Assembly: GCA_964639385.1 (NCBI GenBank)
Contig: CAZXCW010000004.1
Span: 1 to 40,285, forward strand
Direction: 5' to 3'
From: an uncultured Nitrospiraceae bacterium
Lineage (GTDB): Bacteria > Nitrospirota > Thermodesulfovibrionia > Thermodesulfovibrionales > SM23-35
Length of the DNA: 40,285 nt
Shown here: positions 1 through 12,234 of the stretch, in pieces
Position numbering within the stretch: position 1 is the first letter of the stretch
Layout: every line of letters starts with the position of its first letter
Translations under genes and position numbers: made by a program
Notes under the pieces: generated by a model
Told to the model about the DNA's origin: nothing
The model's database searches: none
Seen by the model: the letters and a program-made list of their open reading frames with translations, nothing else

Positions 1-18
1 CAGAAGAGCCACAAACGG

Positions 19-612
19 ATGAGCAATGATCAAGCAAAGAGTTTAGCAGATTTTGTAAATAATCTGACAAAGGATGTAGGTTTAATGTTGAATGGTTTTC
101 AGAGGAAGCGTAGCGAGATGTCAAAGGAACTTAAGAACAAGCTTGCTAAAGAAGTAAAAGAGATTGAAACCTACGTCAAGAAAAGATTAAAAGAGTTTAA
201 CGAAACCCATGCAGAGATGAGCAATGCCTTAAAAGAGAGTTTAGCTAAATATGTTGCTGATATAGTCAGTGGTATCAAGAAACTCTTAGGCGAATATAGT
301 TCTGATATGAAAAAGGCGGCTAATGCATGGCAGGGTATGTCTAAGACCCTGGTCAGTGCAAGAAAGGGCAGAGCTGTAGTGTCAGAGGTGGAAGAGGAAG
401 TGCCTTCTGAGATGGGCATGGAAGAGATGGAAGAAAGGGTACTGGAATTTATCAATAGACATGAAGGAGTGAAAGTTAGCGAGATGGAAGATCCCCTTGG
501 AGTCGCCAGAACAAGATTAGGTGTAATAGCCAAAAGACTGTTAGAGGAAGGTAAGGTCAGGAAAGAGGAGAATCTCTATTTTCCAAACTTGGTACATGCC
601 GGAGTTAGGTAG
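19..612 (+). CDS. Gas-vesicle-cluster coiled-coil protein (GvpC-position analogue) with a C-terminal winged-helix domain; the 5' end may lie outside the window
   Basis: It sits two genes upstream of gvpN, the slot gvpC occupies in gvpA-gvpC-gvpN clusters. The protein is K/E-rich and helical. EMSKELKNKLAKEV (aa 33) and EMSNALKESLAKYV (aa 66) repeat at 33-residue spacing. The C-terminal ~55 aa (EERVLEFINRHEG...ARTRLGVIAKRLLEEGKVRKEENLYF) read as a wHTH. There is no in-frame stop between nt 1 and the ATG at 19. Confidence 0.45.
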   Translation: MSNDQAKSLADFVNNLTKDVGLMLNGFQRKRSEMSKELKNKLAKEVKEIETYVKKRLKEFNETHAEMSNALKESLAKYVADIVSGIKKLLGEYSSDMKKAANAWQGMSKTLVSARKGRAVVSEVEEEVPSEMGMEEMEERVLEFINRHEGVKVSEMEDPLGVARTRLGVIAKRLLEEGKVRKEENLYFPNLVHAGVR

Positions 613-687
613 CACAGGCTATGAAGTAGATAGGAATCTCCCTTGTAGCATTTTTGCATGCAAGTTGTTTGAAAAGGAGGTTGTTCT

Positions 688-2806: not shown

Positions 2807-3175
2807 ATGGGAATAAAGAAAATAGAGGGATTGGTTAAAAAGGTGCGGAGACCTTTAAAAATATCCTCTTATAAAATTAAATGTAATATTGTTGAGGATG
2901 ATTATTCAAAATATGCCGAAATAAACTACCAGCATCCTAAAAGAGCCGCCACAATAAATTTTAATACAAAAAGAATCCATCAGGAATTAGAAAATACCGT
3001 AATTCATGAATTACTGCACTTATTATTTAATAAACATTTGTGGGTTGCAGAAGATATTTTTGAAAGACAGAGGAAATATAAAAGTTTACAAAAGTATCAA
3101 GAGGGTGAAGAGAAAATAATCAATATTTTGGTACCCTTACTGGAAAAGGCAATTTTTGGGAAAGGAAGGAAATAA
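2807..3175 (+). CDS. Minimal zincin-like protein (HExxHxxxxxH motif; SprT/DUF45-like core)
   Basis: VIHELLHLLFNKH gives HELLH plus a third His 6 residues later. It follows a beta-rich segment (YAEINYQHPKRAATINFN), as in SprT/DUF45-type minimal metallopeptidases. The protein is only 122 aa. Confidence 0.4.
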   Translation: MGIKKIEGLVKKVRRPLKISSYKIKCNIVEDDYSKYAEINYQHPKRAATINFNTKRIHQELENTVIHELLHLLFNKHLWVAEDIFERQRKYKSLQKYQEGEEKIINILVPLLEKAIFGKGRK

Positions 3176-3254: not shown

Positions 3255-3784
3255 ATGGCAAAAGAAAAAAAAAGAAAAGAAGACGAAGGTTTAGATATTG
3301 ATTTTGGAATAGGCAAGTTAAGCGTGGGTGGGATATTTAAGGGTATAGAGAAGTTAATAGACCTTGCGGCTGAACTAAAAGAGGCAGGTGGCGAGATCAA
3401 GAAAGAGGGTGAGATTGACTTAAGCCATCTTAAAGAAGGTATGAAAGGGGTATATGGCTTTTCTATTAAGACTGCTGTTGGCGGAAAGCCGATTGTCGAG
3501 ACATTTGGCAATATCAAAAAGACTCCCGAAGGACCTATGGTAGAAGAAGAAAGAGAACCCTTAACAGATGTGTTTGATGAGAAAGACAAGATCCTGGTAA
3601 TAGCCGAGATTCCCGGAGTTTATGAGGAAGGTATAACAATAGATTTAAAAGGAGATATATTAGAAATTTCAGCAGTGGGCAAGAATAGAAAGTATCGAAA
3701 GGAGATCCTTCTACCAGTGCAGGTCAAGAAGGAAGCACTTTCTTATATTTATAAAAACGGTATCTTAGAAGTTAGAATTAAAAA

Positions 3785-3788
<4 letters not shown>
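3255..3788 (+). CDS. Hsp20/alpha-crystallin family small heat-shock protein (GvpH-like role possible)
   Basis: The C-terminal alpha-crystallin domain reads [36 protein letters not shown]...[11 protein letters not shown]...[12 protein letters not shown]. The stop overlaps the GTG start of the downstream AAA+ gene (GTGA, 3785-3788). Confidence 0.8.
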
Positions 3789-5956
<2,168 letters not shown>

Positions 5957-6080: not shown

Positions 6081-6163
6081 CCCTCGCTGCCTTCTCTTAA
6101 TAAGTCGGCTGTGGAGTGCAGCAAGAAATAAATTATAGTGAGCGTCAGAATTAAGTTTACATA

Positions 6164-6253
6164 CCCCCCTCACCCTAACCCTCTCCCGCAAGGGGAGAGG
6201 GTACTCTCTTATGTCTCTCCTCCCTTGATGGGAGTGAATGTAGGAGAGGGTGG
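6164..6253. repeat. C/G-rich REP-like palindromic element (family copy 1)
   Basis: The element reads cccccctcaccctaaccctctcccgcaaggggagagggtac...tctcctcccttgatgggagtgaatgtaggagagggtgg. It includes the hairpin ccctctccc-gcaa-ggggagaggg (6178-6201). It splits the gvp cluster into two transcription blocks. Confidence 0.6.
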
Positions 6254-6267
6254 TTAAAAGATAGGCA

Positions 6268-7320
6268 GTGAGTGTACAGAAAATGGAAGCTAAATATATT
6301 TACGGCATTATTGAGGTTTCAGAAGAGAAAGTGTTTAATTCATATGGGTTCGCTACCTATGAGGAGGTCTATGTAATTTCTTATCAGGATATATCAGCAG
6401 TGGTAAGCGATTCTGAGCTTGTTGATTATACCACCCTTCCTAAGAATCAGGTTGCCAGATACCTTCTAAGACACCAGCAGGTAATCGAGAAGATTATGGA
6501 TCTTCACACCATCATTCCTATGAGGCTTGGCACTTATGCCTTTAGCATCAGAGAGGTTGAAGAGATTCTATCCAAAGGATACAAGACGTTTAAGGATATA
6601 CTTGTGAAGATTAACAATAAAATTGAGATGGATGTTGCAGCAATATGGAGTGATCTGAATTCGATAATTAAAGAGATTGGTGAAGGAGAAGAGATTAAAC
6701 AGCTTAAAGAAAAACTTATGTCCAAACCTGAAGGCATATCTATGGAAGACCAGATAAAGATAGGTAGGCTCATTAAAAATATCTTAGATAAAGAGAGAGA
6801 AAAACTTACTTCTGAGATATGGGATGTATTAAGAAGGTTGAGTATAGATTCAAGAGCGCATGGTCTTATGGATGACAGGATGATTCTTAATACCGCCTTC
6901 CTAATAGATAAAGAAAAAAGGGCTGAATTCGAGAGAAGGTTAAGTGAGTTGAATGAACTGTTCAATGAGAGAATAAATTTTAGGTGTGTTGGTCCACTTC
7001 CGCCCTATAGTTTTTATACGGCTGAGACTAAAAAGATAAGCTGTGAGGAGGTGGATTGGGCAAGAAAGATGCTACATCTGGGTAACAGGGCAACAAAAGA
7101 AGAAGTTATTAACGCGTACAGGAACGGAGCCAAATTCTATCATCCCGATAAGAACATTGGCGTTTCGAATACTGAAAGACAATTTAATGAGATAAATAGG
7201 GCTTATAGAATTCTTCTGGAATACTGCCTGTCTGCCGAACAGGCAGGCAAGGGGGATGGCTGTTTATTTAATGAAAAAGAGTTTGGTCAAAATGCCATCA
7301 TCGTGAAGGTAAGGGAGTAA
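6268..7320 (+). CDS. GvpL/GvpF-family protein fused to a C-terminal J-domain (DnaJ-type, HPD motif)
   Basis: The N-terminal ~260 aa show the GvpF/L pattern (KYIYGII..., IIPMRLGT, LNTAFLIDKEKRAEFE, FRCVGPLPPYSFY). The C-terminus reads ARKMLHLGNRATKEEVINAYRNGAKFYHPDKN...ERQFNEINRAYRIL, with HPD at nt 7141-7149. The likely true start is ATG 6283 (MEAKYIYG). Confidence 0.8.
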   Translation: MSVQKMEAKYIYGIIEVSEEKVFNSYGFATYEEVYVISYQDISAVVSDSELVDYTTLPKNQVARYLLRHQQVIEKIMDLHTIIPMRLGTYAFSIREVEEILSKGYKTFKDILVKINNKIEMDVAAIWSDLNSIIKEIGEGEEIKQLKEKLMSKPEGISMEDQIKIGRLIKNILDKEREKLTSEIWDVLRRLSIDSRAHGLMDDRMILNTAFLIDKEKRAEFERRLSELNELFNERINFRCVGPLPPYSFYTAETKKISCEEVDWARKMLHLGNRATKEEVINAYRNGAKFYHPDKNIGVSNTERQFNEINRAYRILLEYCLSAEQAGKGDGCLFNEKEFGQNAIIVKVRE

Positions 7321-7324
7321 TATT

Positions 7325-8092
7325 TTGGGAAGGGAGAGAAAATATATCTATTGCATTATCGGTACAAAGCAGGAAAGAAATTTTGGACCTGTAGGGATCG
7401 GTGGCAGAGGCGATGAGATCTTAACTATTGGCAATGATGACCTGAGTATGGTGGTAAGCAATCACCCGATGACTAAATTTGTTGTGAGTCGCGAAAATAT
7501 GTTGGATCACGAAAAGGTAATCGAGCAAGTAATGAAGGAATTTGACAGTGTGCTTCCAGTTAGGTTTGGTACCATTGCTTCTAATGCCGATGAGATAAGA
7601 AATCTCTTAGATAGAAGATATAGAGAATTTAAGAATCTTTTGAGAGAGATGGACCATAAGATAGAATTAGGTGTTAAAGGGATATGGAAAAATATGGATG
7701 TAATCTTTAAAGAGATTGTAAAAGAAAACAAGGAAATTAAGAGGGCAAAAGAGAAAATCCTGAACAATACGGGCAAAAAGATACTGACAAAAATGGAAGT
7801 TGGTATGATGGTTGAAGAGGCTCTGAAAAAGAAAAAGGTGGAAGAGACTGAAAGGTTTATCAATATTCTAAGAAAGACATCTATTGACTATAGGCTCAAC
7901 AAGACTATCGGTGATGAGATGTTTATGAAGGCTGCCTTCCTGTTAGATAAAGGTAGAGAGAAAGAATTCGATAACATTATGGATGAGTTAAGTGATGAAT
8001 ATAAGGAAAGAATAAAGTTTATGTATGCAGGCCCCTTGCCTGTATTTAATTTTGTTAATGTCGTAATTTATCCGGAAGAATGGGAAGAATAG
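7325..8092 (+). CDS. gvpF: Gas vesicle protein GvpF/GvpL family
   Basis: KYIYCIIG..FGPVGIGGRGDEI..VSRENMLDHEKVIEQVM..VLPVRFGTIA...FMYAGPLPVFNF. It is a close paralogue of 9623..10375. The start codon is TTG. Confidence 0.85.
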   Translation: MGRERKYIYCIIGTKQERNFGPVGIGGRGDEILTIGNDDLSMVVSNHPMTKFVVSRENMLDHEKVIEQVMKEFDSVLPVRFGTIASNADEIRNLLDRRYREFKNLLREMDHKIELGVKGIWKNMDVIFKEIVKENKEIKRAKEKILNNTGKKILTKMEVGMMVEEALKKKKVEETERFINILRKTSIDYRLNKTIGDEMFMKAAFLLDKGREKEFDNIMDELSDEYKERIKFMYAGPLPVFNFVNVVIYPEEWEE

Positions 8093-8095
8093 TTT

Positions 8096-8617
8096 ATGTT
8101 ATCAGGAACAGAAGCAGATGTTATAAATGCCGTTGCCAGATTAAGGGAGGCAACTAAGGATCAGATAAGGAGAGAGGTTGGTTTTTCCTCAGACTATATA
8201 GAGTTTTTATGTCGATATTTAGTCAGAAAAGGTTATCTTAATTTTTCTAATAGGCATTATTCCATAGGGGAAGTGGGAATAAAAATACTATTGGCTGAAG
8301 AGACATCAAAGTTTGACAGGGGGTTAATCAAAGAGATTACCGCTGAAGTAGCTGAAGAGATCAGTGATGAGTTAAAGGAGACAAAGATGACTGTTGCACT
8401 GAGAGAGCAGAAAGTAGAACGGATTCCAGAGAAAAAAACAAAGATAAAGACCGATTTTGAACTCCCTGTAGAAGATGAGAGTTTAGTCTTAGAAAGTAAT
8501 ATCAATAAAATAGGGCCAAATTTAGAGAAGAAGAGATCTGATATTGATGAGTCAGTTAGATTATTTAAAAAGATTCAAGAGATATTTAAAAAGATTCAAA
8601 GGGGAGGGAGAACATGA
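8096..8617 (+). CDS. Winged-helix N-domain protein with an acidic linker and a duplicated basic-amphipathic C-terminal heptad (candidate adaptor of the downstream actin-like ATPase)
   Basis: The N-terminal wHTH reads EADVINAVARLREATKDQIRREVGFSSDYIEFLCRYLVRKGYL. The middle is E/D-rich (EITAEVAEEISDELKE...ELPVEDESLVLES). The C-terminus LFKKIQE-IFKKIQR is encoded by a 21-bp tandem duplication (atttaaaaagattcaa at 8563 and 8584). The stop overlaps the next ATG (ATGA at 8614). Confidence 0.5.
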   Translation: MLSGTEADVINAVARLREATKDQIRREVGFSSDYIEFLCRYLVRKGYLNFSNRHYSIGEVGIKILLAEETSKFDRGLIKEITAEVAEEISDELKETKMTVALREQKVERIPEKKTKIKTDFELPVEDESLVLESNINKIGPNLEKKRSDIDESVRLFKKIQEIFKKIQRGGRT

Positions 8618-9618
8618 ATGAGGGAGGAAAGGGCATTGATATAGGAACAGTATTTGTGAAATGTGCGCACAAAGAAGGAGATGAAATCATATTCGGGTCT
8701 CAGCGAAACGCCTTTTTCCAAGTAGAATATGCAGGAGGTTTTACTAAGAAGATATTTGACGACCGCATGATAAAGTACGTTGTAAAAGATGATAAATTGT
8801 ATGTGACAGGCAATGATGCATTACAATTTGCCAATCTCTTTAATAAAGAGACAAGAAGGTCTTTAAGTAATGGAGTGATAAGCCCGACAGAAGGAGAAGC
8901 CCTTCCTATAGTAGAGCTATTGATAAAGAGTGCAGTGAGTGAACCTCATTATCAAGGTGAGATAGTCTATTTTTCCATCCCAGCACAGCCTCTAGATGCA
9001 GATTTTAATATCATATATCACATAAAGACCATTGAAGGATTCTTAAAGACCCTGGGTTATACCCCAAAACCCATAGATGAAGGTCTGGCAATTATATTAT
9101 CTGAGTTAGCTGATAAAGACTTTACAGGAATTGGCATTTCCTTTGGCGGCGGGATGGTCAATGTATGCTTGAGCTTTATGTCTGTGCCCATTTCCAAGTT
9201 TTCCCTTACCAGGGCAGGTGACTGGATAGACCAGCAGGTTGCTATGGCAGTGGGTGAGGCAGCCAGCCGTGTAACAGCGATAAAGGAGTCCTCTTTTGAT
9301 TTAACCAAGGTGGGAACATTAAGTAAGATTGAGAGTGCCCTGTCTATTTACTACAATGATCTAATTGAATATGTAATTGAAAATATAAAGCAGGAGTTTG
9401 AAAAAGCAGGCGGGATGCCAGGTATAGTTAAGCCTATAAGTATTGTCCTATCAGGAGGAACCTCGCTTCCTGAGGGCTTTAGCCTTAGGTTTAAAGAGAT
9501 TTTAGACCAATTTAAATTACCTATTCCAGTTGGCGAGACAAGGATAGCAGCACAACCTTTAAATTCGGTGGCTAAGGGTGCCTTAATTGCTGCAATAGCA
9601 GAAGAGGGTTATTCATAA
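8614..9618 (+). CDS. Actin-like ATPase (ASKHA fold; MreB/MamK/ParM class)
   Basis: All ASKHA motifs appear in order: phosphate-1 GIDIGTVFVK, phosphate-2 GIGISFGGGMVNVCL, adenosine IVLSGGTSLPEGF, connect-2 QPLNSVAKGALIAA. MreB/MamK-like blocks are also present (YVTGNDALQF...RRSLSNGVI; FSIPAQP; IDEGLAIILSEL; TRAGDWIDQQV). At 334 aa it is MreB/MamK-sized and has no Hsp70 substrate-binding domain. Confidence 0.75.
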   Translation: MNEGGKGIDIGTVFVKCAHKEGDEIIFGSQRNAFFQVEYAGGFTKKIFDDRMIKYVVKDDKLYVTGNDALQFANLFNKETRRSLSNGVISPTEGEALPIVELLIKSAVSEPHYQGEIVYFSIPAQPLDADFNIIYHIKTIEGFLKTLGYTPKPIDEGLAIILSELADKDFTGIGISFGGGMVNVCLSFMSVPISKFSLTRAGDWIDQQVAMAVGEAASRVTAIKESSFDLTKVGTLSKIESALSIYYNDLIEYVIENIKQEFEKAGGMPGIVKPISIVLSGGTSLPEGFSLRFKEILDQFKLPIPVGETRIAAQPLNSVAKGALIAAIAEEGYS

Positions 9619-11700: not shown

Positions 11701-12234
11701 ATGATTAATAAAAGCGACAATGCAACATTGGTAGACGCCTTGGATAAGGTTTTAGAAAAGGGGGCAGTCGTTAACGGAGATATAATAATAAGGTTAGCGG
11801 ATGTAGACCTTGTCTATTTAGGTTTAAGACTCATTCTTACATCAGTTTCCAAGGCAGAGGAAGTATCGGGTAAAAGTTTTAGTAATCCCAACAAAGGACC
11901 CACCCATGAAGATATAGAGTATATAGAAAGATTGCAAAGAGAAATAAAAAAGGCAGAAGAAAATATCCCCAAACTCATTAACGCCAATAGCCCCAGGGAG
12001 ACAGAACAGGGTTTGGCTAAATTAGTTTTAATCCTGGTTGAATTAATAAGAAAACTTACGGAAAAAGAAGCCTTCAGAAGGGTAAAGAAAGGAACGCTTT
12101 CTCCTGCAGAAATTCAAAAATTAGGATTGACTCTTAAGGCAGTAAAGAAAAAGATAAAAGAGATTCAGATAATCTTTGGCATCGAAGATGAAGAGTTAAG
12201 TTTAGATTTAGGTCCTCTGGGGAATTTGATGTGA
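11701..12234 (+). CDS. Fused GvpJ (GvpA/J/M-fold) - GvpK protein
   Basis: The N-terminus reads ATLVDALDKVLEKGAVVNGDIIIRLADVDLVYLGLRLILTSV (GvpA/J family core). The C-terminus reads GLAKLVLILVELIRKLTEKEAFRRVKKGTLSPAEIQKLGLTLKAV...FGIEDEELSLDLGPLGNLM (GvpK signature, including the terminal LDLGPLG). It is a single uninterrupted 177-codon ORF. Confidence 0.8.
   Translation: MINKSDNATLVDALDKVLEKGAVVNGDIIIRLADVDLVYLGLRLILTSVSKAEEVSGKSFSNPNKGPTHEDIEYIERLQREIKKAEENIPKLINANSPRETEQGLAKLVLILVELIRKLTEKEAFRRVKKGTLSPAEIQKLGLTLKAVKKKIKEIQIIFGIEDEELSLDLGPLGNLM

What the first reader, a model, noticed from the sequence alone, without database searches (positions are those of the whole stretch)
7045..7320. 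J-domain fused to the C-terminus of a GvpL/F protein
The first GvpF/L paralogue (350 aa) continues without interruption into a canonical J-domain: ...LGNRATKEEVINAYRNGAKFYHPDKN...FNEINRAYRIL, with HPD at 7141-7149. J-domains recruit and activate Hsp70. GvpF/L proteins are thought to act at gas-vesicle nucleation and assembly. The fusion therefore implies direct recruitment of DnaK to the nascent vesicle or to the aggregation-prone GvpA/J subunits. The neighbouring actin-like ATPase has no substrate-binding domain, so the housekeeping DnaK is the more likely partner.
Basis: partly seen in the sequence, partly recalled or inferred. Interest (0 to 1): 0.65.

Follow-up and report, generated by a model that had tools for sequence, protein, structure and literature searches.

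The report
Gas-vesicle assembly protein carrying a J-domain
A gas-vesicle assembly protein (GvpF type) in this uncultured bacterium has a genuine Hsp70-recruiting J-domain fused to its end; the fusion is conserved across many phyla, which points to the general Hsp70 chaperone taking part in building or recycling these gas-filled protein organelles.

Summary
ORF 6268-7320 (+) is uninterrupted and encodes a GvpF/L domain (Pfam 202 bits) followed by a J-domain (47.2 bits, cutoff 27.8), with HPD at 7141-7149. An AlphaFold model (pLDDT 87.7) matches GvpF crystal structures and, separately, the DnaK-bound J-domain of E. coli DnaJ.

The fusion is not an assembly artefact. All 120 best database relatives carry both domains, and so do 82 loci from species-representative genomes of more than 12 phyla, all of them MAGs or single-cell genomes. 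HPD is invariant in 186 unique sequences, and the other DnaK-contacting positions are conserved.

The gene sits in a conserved module, Hsp20-(ArsA/Get3-like)-Cdc48-type AAA+-GvpF-J. Cdc48 is directly upstream in 51 of 59 loci. The neighbouring actin-like gene belongs to the volactin family and is optional (9 of 61 loci), so it is not the obligate partner.

In four relatives a full-length DnaK gene directly follows the last gvp gene. These DnaKs are each other's closest relatives.

Best reading: a class-C J-domain protein that delivers Gvp clients to Hsp70. Whether it acts in assembly or in recycling is open. I found no paper that describes it. I rate it a new variant of a known kind, interest 0.65.

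The parts
6268..7320 (+). Gene for the GvpF/L-J fusion protein (350 aa from GTG 6268; more likely 345 aa from ATG 6283)
   Evidence: P0001 in the database is the 345-aa form.
6292..7017 (+). GvpF/L domain (aa 9-250), more GvpF-like than GvpL-like
   Evidence: Pfam PF06386 202 bits. NCBIfam GvpF 91 bits against GvpL 71 bits, both below the equivalog cutoffs. Foldseek match to GvpF 6l5d and 4qsg, TM 0.76-0.81.
7042..7242 (+). J-domain: helix I (ORF aa 259-268), helix II (277-291), HPD loop, long helix III (302-325)
   Evidence: Pfam PF00226 47.2 bits, above cutoff 27.8. PDB sequence match to the DnaJ J-domain. AF2 secondary structure. Foldseek match to 5nro_B, TM 0.80.
7141..7149 (+). HPD motif (H292-P293-D294)
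   Evidence: Read directly from the sequence. 100% conserved in 186 unique fused orthologues; invariant columns in alignment A1.
7243..7317 (+). Conserved C-terminal tail (GDGCLFNEKEFGQNAIIVKVRE), predicted to form two beta-strands; found only with this fusion family
   Evidence: AF2 strands at model residues 326-328 and 338-344. The N-A-I-[LI]-V-K-V-R-E consensus is conserved. The J+tail module is found almost only behind GvpF/L domains.
3785..5956 (+). Cdc48-type double-ring AAA+ ATPase, the conserved upstream neighbour of the fusion gene
   Evidence: Pfam CDC48_N, CDC48_2 and two AAA domains. Passes TIGR01243 (939 bits against 803). Directly upstream of the fusion in 51 of 59 loci.
3255..3788 (+). 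Hsp20 / small heat-shock protein (GvpH-like), overlapping the start of the Cdc48 gene
   Evidence: Pfam HSP20. NCBIfam archaeal Hsp20 141.4 bits against cutoff 140. Present upstream in 46 of 49 loci.
6178..6202 (+). GC-rich hairpin (10-bp stem) in the 312-nt spacer between the Cdc48 and fusion genes
   Evidence: A single copy in the window. The spacer is longer here than the median of about 100 nt in relatives.
7325..8092 (+). Second GvpF/L paralogue, with no J-domain, starting 5 nt after the fusion gene's stop codon
   Evidence: It is the conserved downstream neighbour in 49 of 71 loci.
8614..9618 (+). Volactin-family actin-fold protein (the 'actin-like ATPase' of the finding). Together with orf 8096-8617 it forms an optional cassette
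   Evidence: Pfam PF25216 314 bits. No Hsp70 similarity. Present in 9 of 61 loci.

Best explanation
The protein is a class-C (type III) J-domain protein whose targeting module is a GvpF-type gas-vesicle assembly domain. The proposed mechanism has three steps. First, the GvpF domain binds the hydrophobic, aggregation-prone shell proteins (GvpA and its relatives GvpJ/M/S), as shown for GvpF in other systems. Second, the rigidly attached J-domain docks onto ATP-bound Hsp70 (DnaK), with its HPD loop against the DnaK nucleotide-binding domain and linker. Third, it triggers ATP hydrolysis, so that DnaK clamps onto the Gvp client presented next to it. In this way Hsp70 capacity is brought directly to the site where shell protein is handled.

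The protein works within a conserved cluster-encoded proteostasis module: Hsp20, usually an ArsA/Get3-like ATPase, a Cdc48-type unfoldase and the GvpF-J protein, often with small DnaJ-type zinc-finger proteins as well. In this genome the partner is presumably the housekeeping DnaK. In some relatives a dedicated DnaK is encoded at the end of the gvp cluster.

Shown here: the domain identity, the fold, the conservation of Hsp70-contact residues, the synteny, and the cluster-linked DnaK in relatives. Inferred: client binding by this particular paralogue, the identity of the Hsp70 partner in this genome, and the stage at which it acts.
For: J-domain identity: Pfam score above cutoff; best PDB sequence match is the DnaJ J-domain; AF2 model plus Foldseek matches to J-domains, including the DnaK-bound 5nro_B.

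Purifying selection on Hsp70-contact positions in 186 unique orthologues that go down to about 43% identity: H33, P34 and D35 are 100% conserved; the F47 equivalent 96%; the Y25 equivalent Y/H/F 99%; the K26 equivalent is R or K in 68% and Q or H in 29%; K23 88%; R36 is K or R in 92%. PMC13012618 names these residues as the ones contacting DnaK R167, E217, L391 and L392.

The fusion is conserved across Nitrospirota, Planctomycetota, Omnitrophota, Elusimicrobiota, Atribacterota, Actinomycetota, Ignavibacteriales, Latescibacterota and others. Of the 150 best 50%-identity cluster representatives for the J+tail segment, 61 carry the GvpF/L domain.

Hsp70 link: in L082/L085, L084, L086 and L087 a full-length DnaK directly follows the last gvp gene on the same strand. 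It covers the HSP70 profile to position 595 of 599 and matches Geobacillus DnaK at E 3e-196, and the RIINEPT and VLLD linker segments are intact. These DnaKs are 71-83% identical to one another and at most about 62% identical to the other 77 DnaK loci retrieved, none of which has gvp genes.

Chaperone context: Hsp20 in 46 of 49 loci, Cdc48 in 51 of 59, ArsA-like in 39 of 49, DnaJ-type zinc-finger proteins in 29 of 40.

Literature: GvpF binds GvpA and is proposed to chaperone its hydrophobic face (PMC11445434). [quoted passage not shown]
Against: There is no biochemical evidence. No dnaK gene lies in the 40-kb window, and I could not inspect the rest of this genome. A cluster-linked DnaK was seen in only 4 of about 85 related loci, all of one variant gene order. 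Helix IV of the J-domain is not recognisable by profile: the Pfam match stops at position 53 of 63, and that region instead leads into a family-specific tail. The K26-equivalent position is not basic in about 30% of members. It is not known which of the four GvpF/L paralogues binds GvpA. I could not examine the AF2 coordinates, so I could not check whether the HPD face is accessible in the full-length protein.
Confidence: 0.7

Rival explanations
1. The J-domain still works through Hsp70, but the purpose is disassembly and recycling rather than assembly. Together with Hsp20 and the adjacent Cdc48-type unfoldase, the fusion would form a bi-chaperone disaggregase, analogous to sHsp-DnaK/J-ClpB, that extracts GvpA from collapsed vesicles or off-pathway aggregates. 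This overlaps with the best explanation and differs only in the stage at which the protein acts.
For: The Cdc48-type AAA+ gene is directly upstream in 51 of 59 loci, with a median spacing of about 100 nt, and Hsp20 is present in 46 of 49 loci. [quoted passage not shown]
Against: GvpF/L proteins are essential assembly factors in all studied systems, and GvpF binds GvpA early, possibly co-translationally (PMC11445434). Cdc48-type ATPases lack the ClpB M-domain through which Hsp70 normally couples to a disaggregase (established knowledge, not tested here). Nothing in the sequence tells the two stages apart.
Confidence: 0.2
2. The J-domain acts on a partner other than Hsp70 that is encoded in the cluster: either the adjacent Cdc48-type AAA+ ATPase or the volactin-family actin-fold ATPase, which shares the Hsp70/actin ATPase fold.
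For: Very tight synteny with the Cdc48 gene. In this window a volactin-family gene lies two genes downstream, and actin-fold proteins share a fold with the Hsp70 nucleotide-binding domain.
Against: Volactin is present in only 9 of 61 fusion loci. It lacks the interdomain linker and the beta substrate-binding domain that J-domains contact, and it shows no sequence similarity to Hsp70. The conserved positions in the J-domain are exactly those that contact DnaK R167, E217 and L391/L392. No J-domain is known to activate a Cdc48-type ATPase (established knowledge). True DnaK genes are recruited into some related clusters.
Confidence: 0.06
3. The J-domain is a structural relic with no co-chaperone activity, or the fusion is an assembly or annotation artefact.
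For: Helix IV is divergent, and the domain is followed by a family-specific tail that may pack back onto the GvpF domain. One orthologue, in L064, is split by a stop codon.
Against: HPD is 100% conserved across 186 unique sequences from more than 12 phyla, which is not expected without Hsp70-related selection. The same fusion is assembled independently in hundreds of contigs from different studies. The ORF is continuous in the window.
Confidence: 0.04

Closest known systems
Class C (type III) J-domain proteins, such as DjlA, HscB and TopJ, in which a J-domain is fused to a client- or site-specific targeting domain
   Same: It has a canonical J-domain with HPD and lacks the G/F region, the zinc-finger domain and the DnaJ C-terminal domains. 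The non-J part gives localisation or client specificity. The logic is the same: bring Hsp70 to a particular substrate or structure. NCBIfam lists weak J-domain-only matches to TopJ, DjlA and CbpA.
   Different: The targeting domain is a GvpF/L gas-vesicle assembly domain, an architecture I did not find described in the searchable literature. The J-domain is C-terminal and is followed by a conserved beta-strand tail specific to this family.
GvpF of cyanobacteria (crystal structures 4qsg and 6l5d) and GvpF/GvpL of Halobacterium and Bacillus megaterium
   Same: The fold of the N-terminal 250 aa is the same (TM 0.76-0.81). It belongs to the same Pfam family and lies in a gvp cluster beside GvpG, GvpO, GvpJ, GvpK and GvpN. 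GvpF is already proposed to chaperone GvpA (PMC11445434).
   Different: Sequence identity is about 23%. It scores below the NCBIfam equivalog cutoffs for both GvpF and GvpL. It carries a J-domain that the studied GvpF/L proteins lack. It is one of four paralogues in the cluster.
The bacterial sHsp-DnaK/DnaJ-ClpB disaggregation network
   Same: The cluster combines a small Hsp, a J-domain, a double-ring AAA+ unfoldase and, in some relatives, a DnaK. These are the same functional classes as that network.
   Different: The AAA+ component is Cdc48-type (CDC48_N, D1 and D2 domains), not ClpB. The J-domain sits on an organelle-specific adaptor rather than on DnaJ. An ArsA/Get3-like ATPase is usually present as well. 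No functional coupling has been tested.
E. coli DnaJ J-domain bound to DnaK (PDB 5nro)
   Same: It is the best sequence and structural match for the J-domain. The equivalents of HPD, Y25, K26 and F47 are conserved.
   Different: Only the J-domain is shared; identity is about 30-35%, and helix IV is not conserved.

Membership tests
J-domain protein (JDP) superfamily | Sequence match to the J-domain profile (PF00226) above the curated threshold | tested here: met
   47.2 bits against a gathering cutoff of 27.8, E 2.5e-12, aa 268-316. The same holds for the L082 orthologue, at 44.8 bits.
J-domain protein (JDP) superfamily | HPD tripeptide in the loop between helices II and III | tested here: met
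   H292-P293-D294 lies between the predicted helices II and III and is 100% conserved in 186 unique orthologues.
J-domain protein (JDP) superfamily | Helical-hairpin J fold (helices I-III, plus helix IV) | tested here: met
   The AF2 model has pLDDT of about 86-95 in this region. Foldseek TM to 5nro_B is 0.80, and many other J-domains match. Helix IV is not separately resolved: helix III is long, and the Pfam match ends at position 53 of 63.
J-domain protein (JDP) superfamily | Conserved Hsp70-contact residues outside HPD (equivalents of DnaJ Y25, K26, F47) | tested here: met
   The window protein has Y, R and F at these positions. Across the family they are Y77/H19, R63/K5/Q17/H12 and F96. 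The contact list is taken from PMC13012618.
J-domain protein (JDP) superfamily | HPD-dependent stimulation of Hsp70 ATPase | not testable with these tools
   Needs biochemistry.
Class A/B DnaJ (DnaJ/CbpA type) | G/F-rich region, CXXCXGXG zinc-finger domain (class A) and DnaJ C-terminal client-binding domains | tested here: not met
   No such Pfam domains. The protein is far below the NCBIfam DnaJ equivalog cutoffs, at 39 bits against 377. No CXXCXGXG motif occurs anywhere in the window. It is therefore class C.
GvpF/GvpL gas vesicle protein family | Match to PF06386 above threshold, and the GvpF fold | tested here: met
   202.3 bits against a cutoff of 23.6. Foldseek matches 6l5d_B at E 4e-14 with TM 0.81, and also 4qsg.
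GvpF/GvpL gas vesicle protein family | Encoded within a gvp gene cluster | tested here: met
   GvpN, GvpG, GvpO, a GvpJ-K fusion, a GvpA/J-type gene and three more GvpF/L paralogues lie on the same strand.
Strict orthologue of cyanobacterial GvpF (NF052351) or of GvpL (NF045778) | Score above the NCBIfam equivalog cutoff | tested here: not met
   GvpF 91 bits against cutoff 350; GvpL 71 bits against cutoff 200. It is GvpF-leaning but forms a distinct subfamily.
Hsp70 (considered for the neighbouring actin-like ATPase at 8614-9618) | Match to the HSP70 profile, with the interdomain linker and a substrate-binding domain | tested here: not met
   Only Pfam Volactin PF25216 matches (314 bits). There is no PDB sequence hit and no phmmer hit to a true DnaK at E 1e-3. 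The protein is 334 aa long, which leaves no room for a substrate-binding domain.

The most novel reading that the evidence does not exclude
This type of gvp cluster encodes a self-contained, organelle-dedicated proteostasis machine. Its parts would be a GvpF-J adaptor that hands shell proteins to Hsp70; an Hsp20; an ArsA/Get3-like holdase for hydrophobic segments; a Cdc48-type unfoldase; DnaJ-type zinc-finger holdases (a DnaJ split into separate polypeptides); and, in some lineages, its own DnaK. If so, Hsp70 is an integral and obligatory part of gas-vesicle biogenesis or turnover in a large, unstudied group of anaerobic bacteria, and the J-domain shows that GvpF acts mechanistically as a co-chaperone.
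Probability: 0.4. Interest if true: 0.8.

Novelty: new variant of a known kind. Interest (0 to 1): 0.65.

Why it matters
How the extremely hydrophobic shell protein GvpA is kept soluble and inserted into a growing gas vesicle is an open question. GvpF has only been proposed to be its chaperone, on the basis of interaction data. A conserved J-domain on a GvpF paralogue is independent evolutionary evidence for that proposal, because it says this protein hands clients to Hsp70. It also gives a clean test: an HPD point mutation.

It also defines a widespread gvp cluster type, so far undescribed in the literature I could search, with built-in chaperones (Hsp20, Cdc48, ArsA/Get3-like and sometimes DnaK). 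The cluster occurs in uncultured Nitrospirota, Planctomycetota, Omnitrophota, Atribacterota and other phyla.

On the practical side, heterologous gas-vesicle expression for acoustic reporter genes is limited by proteotoxic stress. Co-expressing or fusing J-domains, or matching the host's Hsp70 capacity, are engineering ideas that follow directly from this finding.

Tried and rejected
1. Artefactual fusion or hidden frameshift. Rejected: the ORF is continuous, and the fusion recurs in all 120 best database hits and in 82 loci.

2. Volactin-like neighbour as the J-domain partner. Rejected as a general explanation: the gene is optional (9 of 61 loci) and has no Hsp70 features.

3. An apparent HPD-less orthologue in L064. 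This was an artefact of my own slicing. That gene is split by a stop codon but still has HPD.

4. A dnaK, grpE or dnaJ gene inside the window. None found.

5. DnaJ-type zinc-finger and ArsA-like genes inside the window. Absent, although common in relatives.

6. Literature searches for 'gas vesicle' with J-domain, J domain, DnaJ or DnaK, with Cdc48, volactin or Nitrospirota, and for 'J-domain protein' with 'GvpL'. No paper describes the fusion. PMC7325909 describes the Hakubella gvp genes and a neighbouring hsp20 but not the J-domain or DnaK.

7. I could not read the AF2 coordinates, so where the tail docks and whether the HPD face is accessible remain unchecked.

8. The extra scan of species genomes with the DnaK fragment mostly returned ordinary DnaKs: 77 of 80 loci had no gvp genes.
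Full report
**1. Observation.**

The window contains a + strand ORF at 6268..7320, 350 aa from a GTG start, with no internal stop. The database gene call (P0001, 345 aa) and all homologs start at the ATG at 6283 (MEAKYIYGII), so 345 aa is the more likely length.

Pfam finds GvpL_GvpF at aa 9-250 (202.3 bits) and DnaJ PF00226 at aa 268-316 (47.2 bits against a gathering cutoff of 27.8, E 2.5e-12). NCBIfam gives only J-domain-limited matches to DnaJ, TopJ, DjlA and CbpA models, all far below their whole-protein cutoffs. So the protein is not a DnaJ orthologue; it is a J-domain attached to something else.

The C-terminal 96 aa match the E. coli DnaJ J-domain best among all solved structures (1bqz, 1xbl and 5nro_B; E 2.4e-6; no gaps over 52 residues).

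An AlphaFold2 model built on a 65-sequence alignment has mean pLDDT 87.7 and pTM 0.77. In it the GvpF domain ends with a strand at model residues 246-252. Helix I (254-263), helix II (272-286), the HPD loop (287-289) and a long helix III (297-320) follow. The chain ends with two short strands (326-328 and 338-344).

Foldseek matches the N-terminal part to the GvpF crystal structures 6l5d and 4qsg (E about 1e-13, TM 0.76-0.81). It matches the C-terminal part to dozens of J-domains, including the DnaK-bound J-domain 5nro_B (TM 0.80, rmsd 2.9 A).

**2. The fusion is a conserved family, not an accident.**

All 120 best hits among 5.8 billion proteins carry both PF00226 and PF06386, down to 51% identity. 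The sources that name them call them GvpL/GvpF family proteins from Nitrospirota, Thermodesulfovibrionales or 'Nitrospinae' MAGs, and one JGI record names both domains. Every one of the 120 contains HPD.

A profile-guided scan of one genome per species found 275 relatives. The best 80 nearly all align through the J-domain and tail. They come from MAGs or single-cell genomes labelled Nitrospirota, Nitrospinota, Planctomycetota (Pirellulales, Phycisphaerae), Omnitrophota, Elusimicrobiota, Latescibacterota, Ignavibacteriales, Kiritimatiellota, Atribacterota, Actinomycetota, Sumerlaeota, Desantisbacteria and others.

All 82 J-bearing orthologues in these loci keep HPD. One, in L064, is split by a stop codon.

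An exhaustive search of 1.84 billion cluster representatives with only the J+tail segment gave 37 hits at E <= 1e-10. Of the best 150, 61 have a GvpF/L domain directly N-terminal. Several short hits are fragments with the same tail, and the rest are ordinary J-proteins.

**3. Conservation pattern of the J-domain.**

I compared 186 unique fused sequences using E. coli DnaJ numbering:

- H33, P34 and D35 are 100% conserved.
- K23 is K in 88%.
- Y25 is Y in 77%, H in 19% and F in 3%.
- K26 is R in 63%, K in 5%, Q in 17% and H in 12%.
- R36 is K or R in 92%.
- N37 is 86% conserved.
- F47 is 96% conserved.
- A53 is 96%, Y54 94% and L57 96% conserved.

PMC13012618 lists D35, K26, Y25, H33 and F47 as the J-domain residues that contact DnaK R167, E217, L391 and L392. 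It describes the D35-R167 salt bridge and the H33-L391 contact as the trigger for ATP hydrolysis. Selection has therefore preserved the Hsp70-activating surface. Helix IV is not conserved. A family-specific tail (consensus C-S-F-x-E-x-E-F-x-K-N-A-I-L-V-K-V-R-E) takes its place, and 36% of members lack a 7-residue segment just before it.

**4. Genomic context.**

The window's cluster runs on the + strand in this order:

| Position | Gene |
|---|---|
| 19 | unknown orf |
| 688 | unknown orf |
| 1067 | GvpN |
| 2071 | unknown orf |
| 2807 | unknown orf |
| 3255 | Hsp20-like |
| 3785 | Cdc48-type AAA+ |
| 6268 | GvpF-J fusion |
| 7325 | GvpF/L |
| 8096 | unknown orf |
| 8614 | volactin-family actin-fold protein |
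| 9623 | GvpF/L |
| 10378 | GvpG |
| 10617 | GvpO |
| 10886 | GvpF/L (GvpL-like) |
| 11701 | GvpJ/A-GvpK fusion |
| 12231 | unknown orf |
| 12514 | GvpA/J-type |
| 12824 | unknown orf |

The cluster ends against convergent sugar-nucleotide genes. The Cdc48 gene passes the TIGR01243 cutoff, and the Hsp20 just passes the archaeal Hsp20 equivalog. The J-bearing paralogue leans towards GvpF (91 bits against 71 for GvpL), while the fourth paralogue leans towards GvpL.

I used the window's proteins as probes against 84 related loci, and the order is strongly conserved. The counts below are for loci that extend far enough, out of 82 loci with the fusion:

| Feature | Loci |
|---|---|
| Cdc48 as the immediately preceding gene | 51 of 59 |
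| Hsp20 upstream | 46 of 49 |
| ArsA/Get3-like ATPase between Hsp20 and Cdc48 | 39 of 49 |
| GvpN upstream | 39 of 40 |
| Small DnaJ-type CXXCXGXG zinc-finger proteins upstream | 29 of 40 |
| Volactin-family gene present | 9 of 61 |

The ArsA/Get3-like and zinc-finger genes were identified. Spacing between Cdc48 and the fusion gene has a median of about 100 nt. The window itself lacks the ArsA-like and zinc-finger genes.

**5. The Hsp70 link.**

No dnaK is in the window. In a variant gene order, however, a true Hsp70 gene directly follows the last GvpA-family gene on the same strand. This occurs in four loci:

- L082/L085 (Nitrospirota MAG042)
- L084 ('Edwardsbacteria' MAG059)
- L086 (an Atribacteria MAG)
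- L087 (Candidatus Hakubella thermalkaliphila, Actinomycetota)

This is shown. The L085 gene is full length: the HSP70 profile is covered to position 595 of 599, so it has a substrate-binding domain. It matches Geobacillus DnaK at E 2.8e-196. The RIINEPT segment that holds the R167 equivalent is intact, as are the FEV segment (E217 equivalent) and the DVVLLDVTPL linker. The mapping to E. coli DnaK numbering is from my own knowledge.

The gene is not flanked by grpE or dnaJ. Another DnaJ-type zinc-finger protein and a second ArsA-like gene lie downstream. These cluster-linked DnaKs are 71-83% identical to one another. The next best of 578 DnaK relatives are at most about 62% identical, and none of the other 77 loci fetched has gvp genes.

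This looks like repeated co-inheritance of a DnaK with this cluster type. It is the strongest available evidence that the J-domain's partner is an Hsp70.

**6. Mechanism.**

Published interaction work supports the client-binding step. GvpF is the primary binder of GvpA, including its hydrophobic N-terminal helix, and is proposed to act as its chaperone. GvpL scaffolds GvpJ, GvpS/M and GvpK (PMC11445434). [quoted passage not shown]

Putting these together, the best-supported model has three steps. The GvpF domain binds a Gvp client. The J-domain docks on DnaK-ATP. HPD-triggered hydrolysis then traps the adjacent client on DnaK.

Shown here: the identity, fold, conserved contact residues, synteny and cluster-linked DnaK in relatives. 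Inferred: client binding by this paralogue, use of the housekeeping DnaK in this genome, and the stage at which the protein acts.

The main alternative stage is recycling. [quoted passage not shown] The conserved Hsp20 and Cdc48-type unfoldase next to the fusion would also fit a disaggregase role. The sequence data do not separate the two stages.

**7. Comparison with what is known, and novelty.**

By domain content this is a class-C J-domain protein, with no G/F region, zinc finger or DnaJ C-terminal domains. It is also a member of the GvpF/L family by profile and fold. It is not a strict orthologue of cyanobacterial GvpF or of GvpL.

Automated annotation has seen both domains. But seven full-text searches found no paper that mentions a J-domain on a Gvp protein or this chaperone-rich cluster type (the seventh, served only to document the J-domain contact residues). 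The Hakubella genome paper lists the gvp genes and notes a neighbouring hsp20, but nothing more. The library lacks most subscription journals, so a prior description elsewhere cannot be excluded.

I rate this a new variant of a known kind: a new J-domain architecture, and a new chaperone-equipped type of gvp cluster.

**8. Verdict.**

The added context, namely the Hsp20-Cdc48 module, the optional volactin cassette and the cluster-linked DnaK in relatives, both strengthens and widens that interpretation. Interest 0.65.

Noticed in passing
window 8096-9618 (+): A volactin-family actin-fold gene (PF25216, 314 bits; weak MamK similarity) and a 173-aa unknown gene just upstream of it form an optional two-gene cassette inserted between the second and third GvpF/L paralogues. 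The cassette is present in only 9 of 61 related clusters, across several phyla. It may be a cytoskeletal element for positioning gas vesicles, by analogy with MamK and magnetosomes.
   Followed up: partly
window 3255-5956 (+): A bacterial gvp cluster carries an archaeal-type Hsp20 (NF041800, 141.4 bits against cutoff 140) and a full Cdc48-type double-ring AAA+ ATPase (TIGR01243, 939 bits against 803), with overlapping start and stop codons. Both are conserved directly upstream of the J-fusion in most related clusters.
   Followed up: partly
L012:6605-7615, L010:4217-5158 and about 37 other loci; tandem form at L082:13464-15425: An ArsA/Get3-like ATPase gene sits between Hsp20 and Cdc48 in 39 of 49 related clusters but is missing from this window. 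Get3/ArsA-type proteins shield hydrophobic segments, so it may be another holdase for shell proteins.
   Followed up: partly
L082:16135-16524, L085:12616-13107, L010:1050-1379 and many others: Small proteins of 110-165 aa with a DnaJ-type CXXCXGXG zinc-finger domain (PF00684) occur once or twice in 29 of 40 related clusters and are absent from this window. With the J-domain on GvpF, this looks like a DnaJ split across separate polypeptides.
   Followed up: partly
L085:10001-11725, L084:20317-20952, L086:1857-3317, L087:6186-7985: A full-length DnaK gene directly follows the last GvpA-family gene in four related clusters from genomes labelled as four different phyla. These DnaKs are each other's closest relatives (71-83% identity).
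   Followed up: yes
window 11701-12234 (+): A single 177-aa ORF combines a GvpA/J-type Gas_vesicle domain (aa 9-47) with a GvpK domain (aa 97-177). This GvpJ-GvpK fusion is conserved in most related loci.
   Followed up: no
window 6160-6260; L010:7473-8546: The 312-nt spacer between Cdc48 and the fusion gene holds a GC-rich hairpin (6178-6202, CCCTCTCCCGCAAGGGGAGAGGG) that looks like a terminator or a repeat element. The L010 orthologue has an in-frame insertion (NNPPYPPLIKGGQGGLSG) inside its GvpF domain that looks like a translated copy of a similar GC-rich element.
   Followed up: partly
window 1-620: The major gvpA gene is not in the window. In relatives a GvpA-type gene lies just upstream of the homologue of orf 19-612, so it was probably cut off at the window's 5' end.
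   Followed up: no
window 2807-3175 (+): A 122-aa ORF with an HELLH (HExxH-like) motif and no Pfam match lies between the GvpN region and Hsp20. Among the related loci it was recognised only in L012.
   Followed up: no
L064:3825-4988: In this MAG, labelled Pseudomonadota, the fusion orthologue is split by an in-frame stop into two ORFs. It is either a pseudogene or a sequencing error. The J-domain part still has HPD.
   Followed up: partly
window 13745-40285: The rest of the window encodes UDP-glucose dehydrogenase and mannose-1-phosphate guanylyltransferase (- strand), an epimerase, a type II secretion / type IV pilus-like locus (T2SSE, T2SSF, T2SSK, PilM/N and a secretin), GatA-like amidase, DnaX and an RpoD-type sigma factor. 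No chaperone genes are present.
   Followed up: partly
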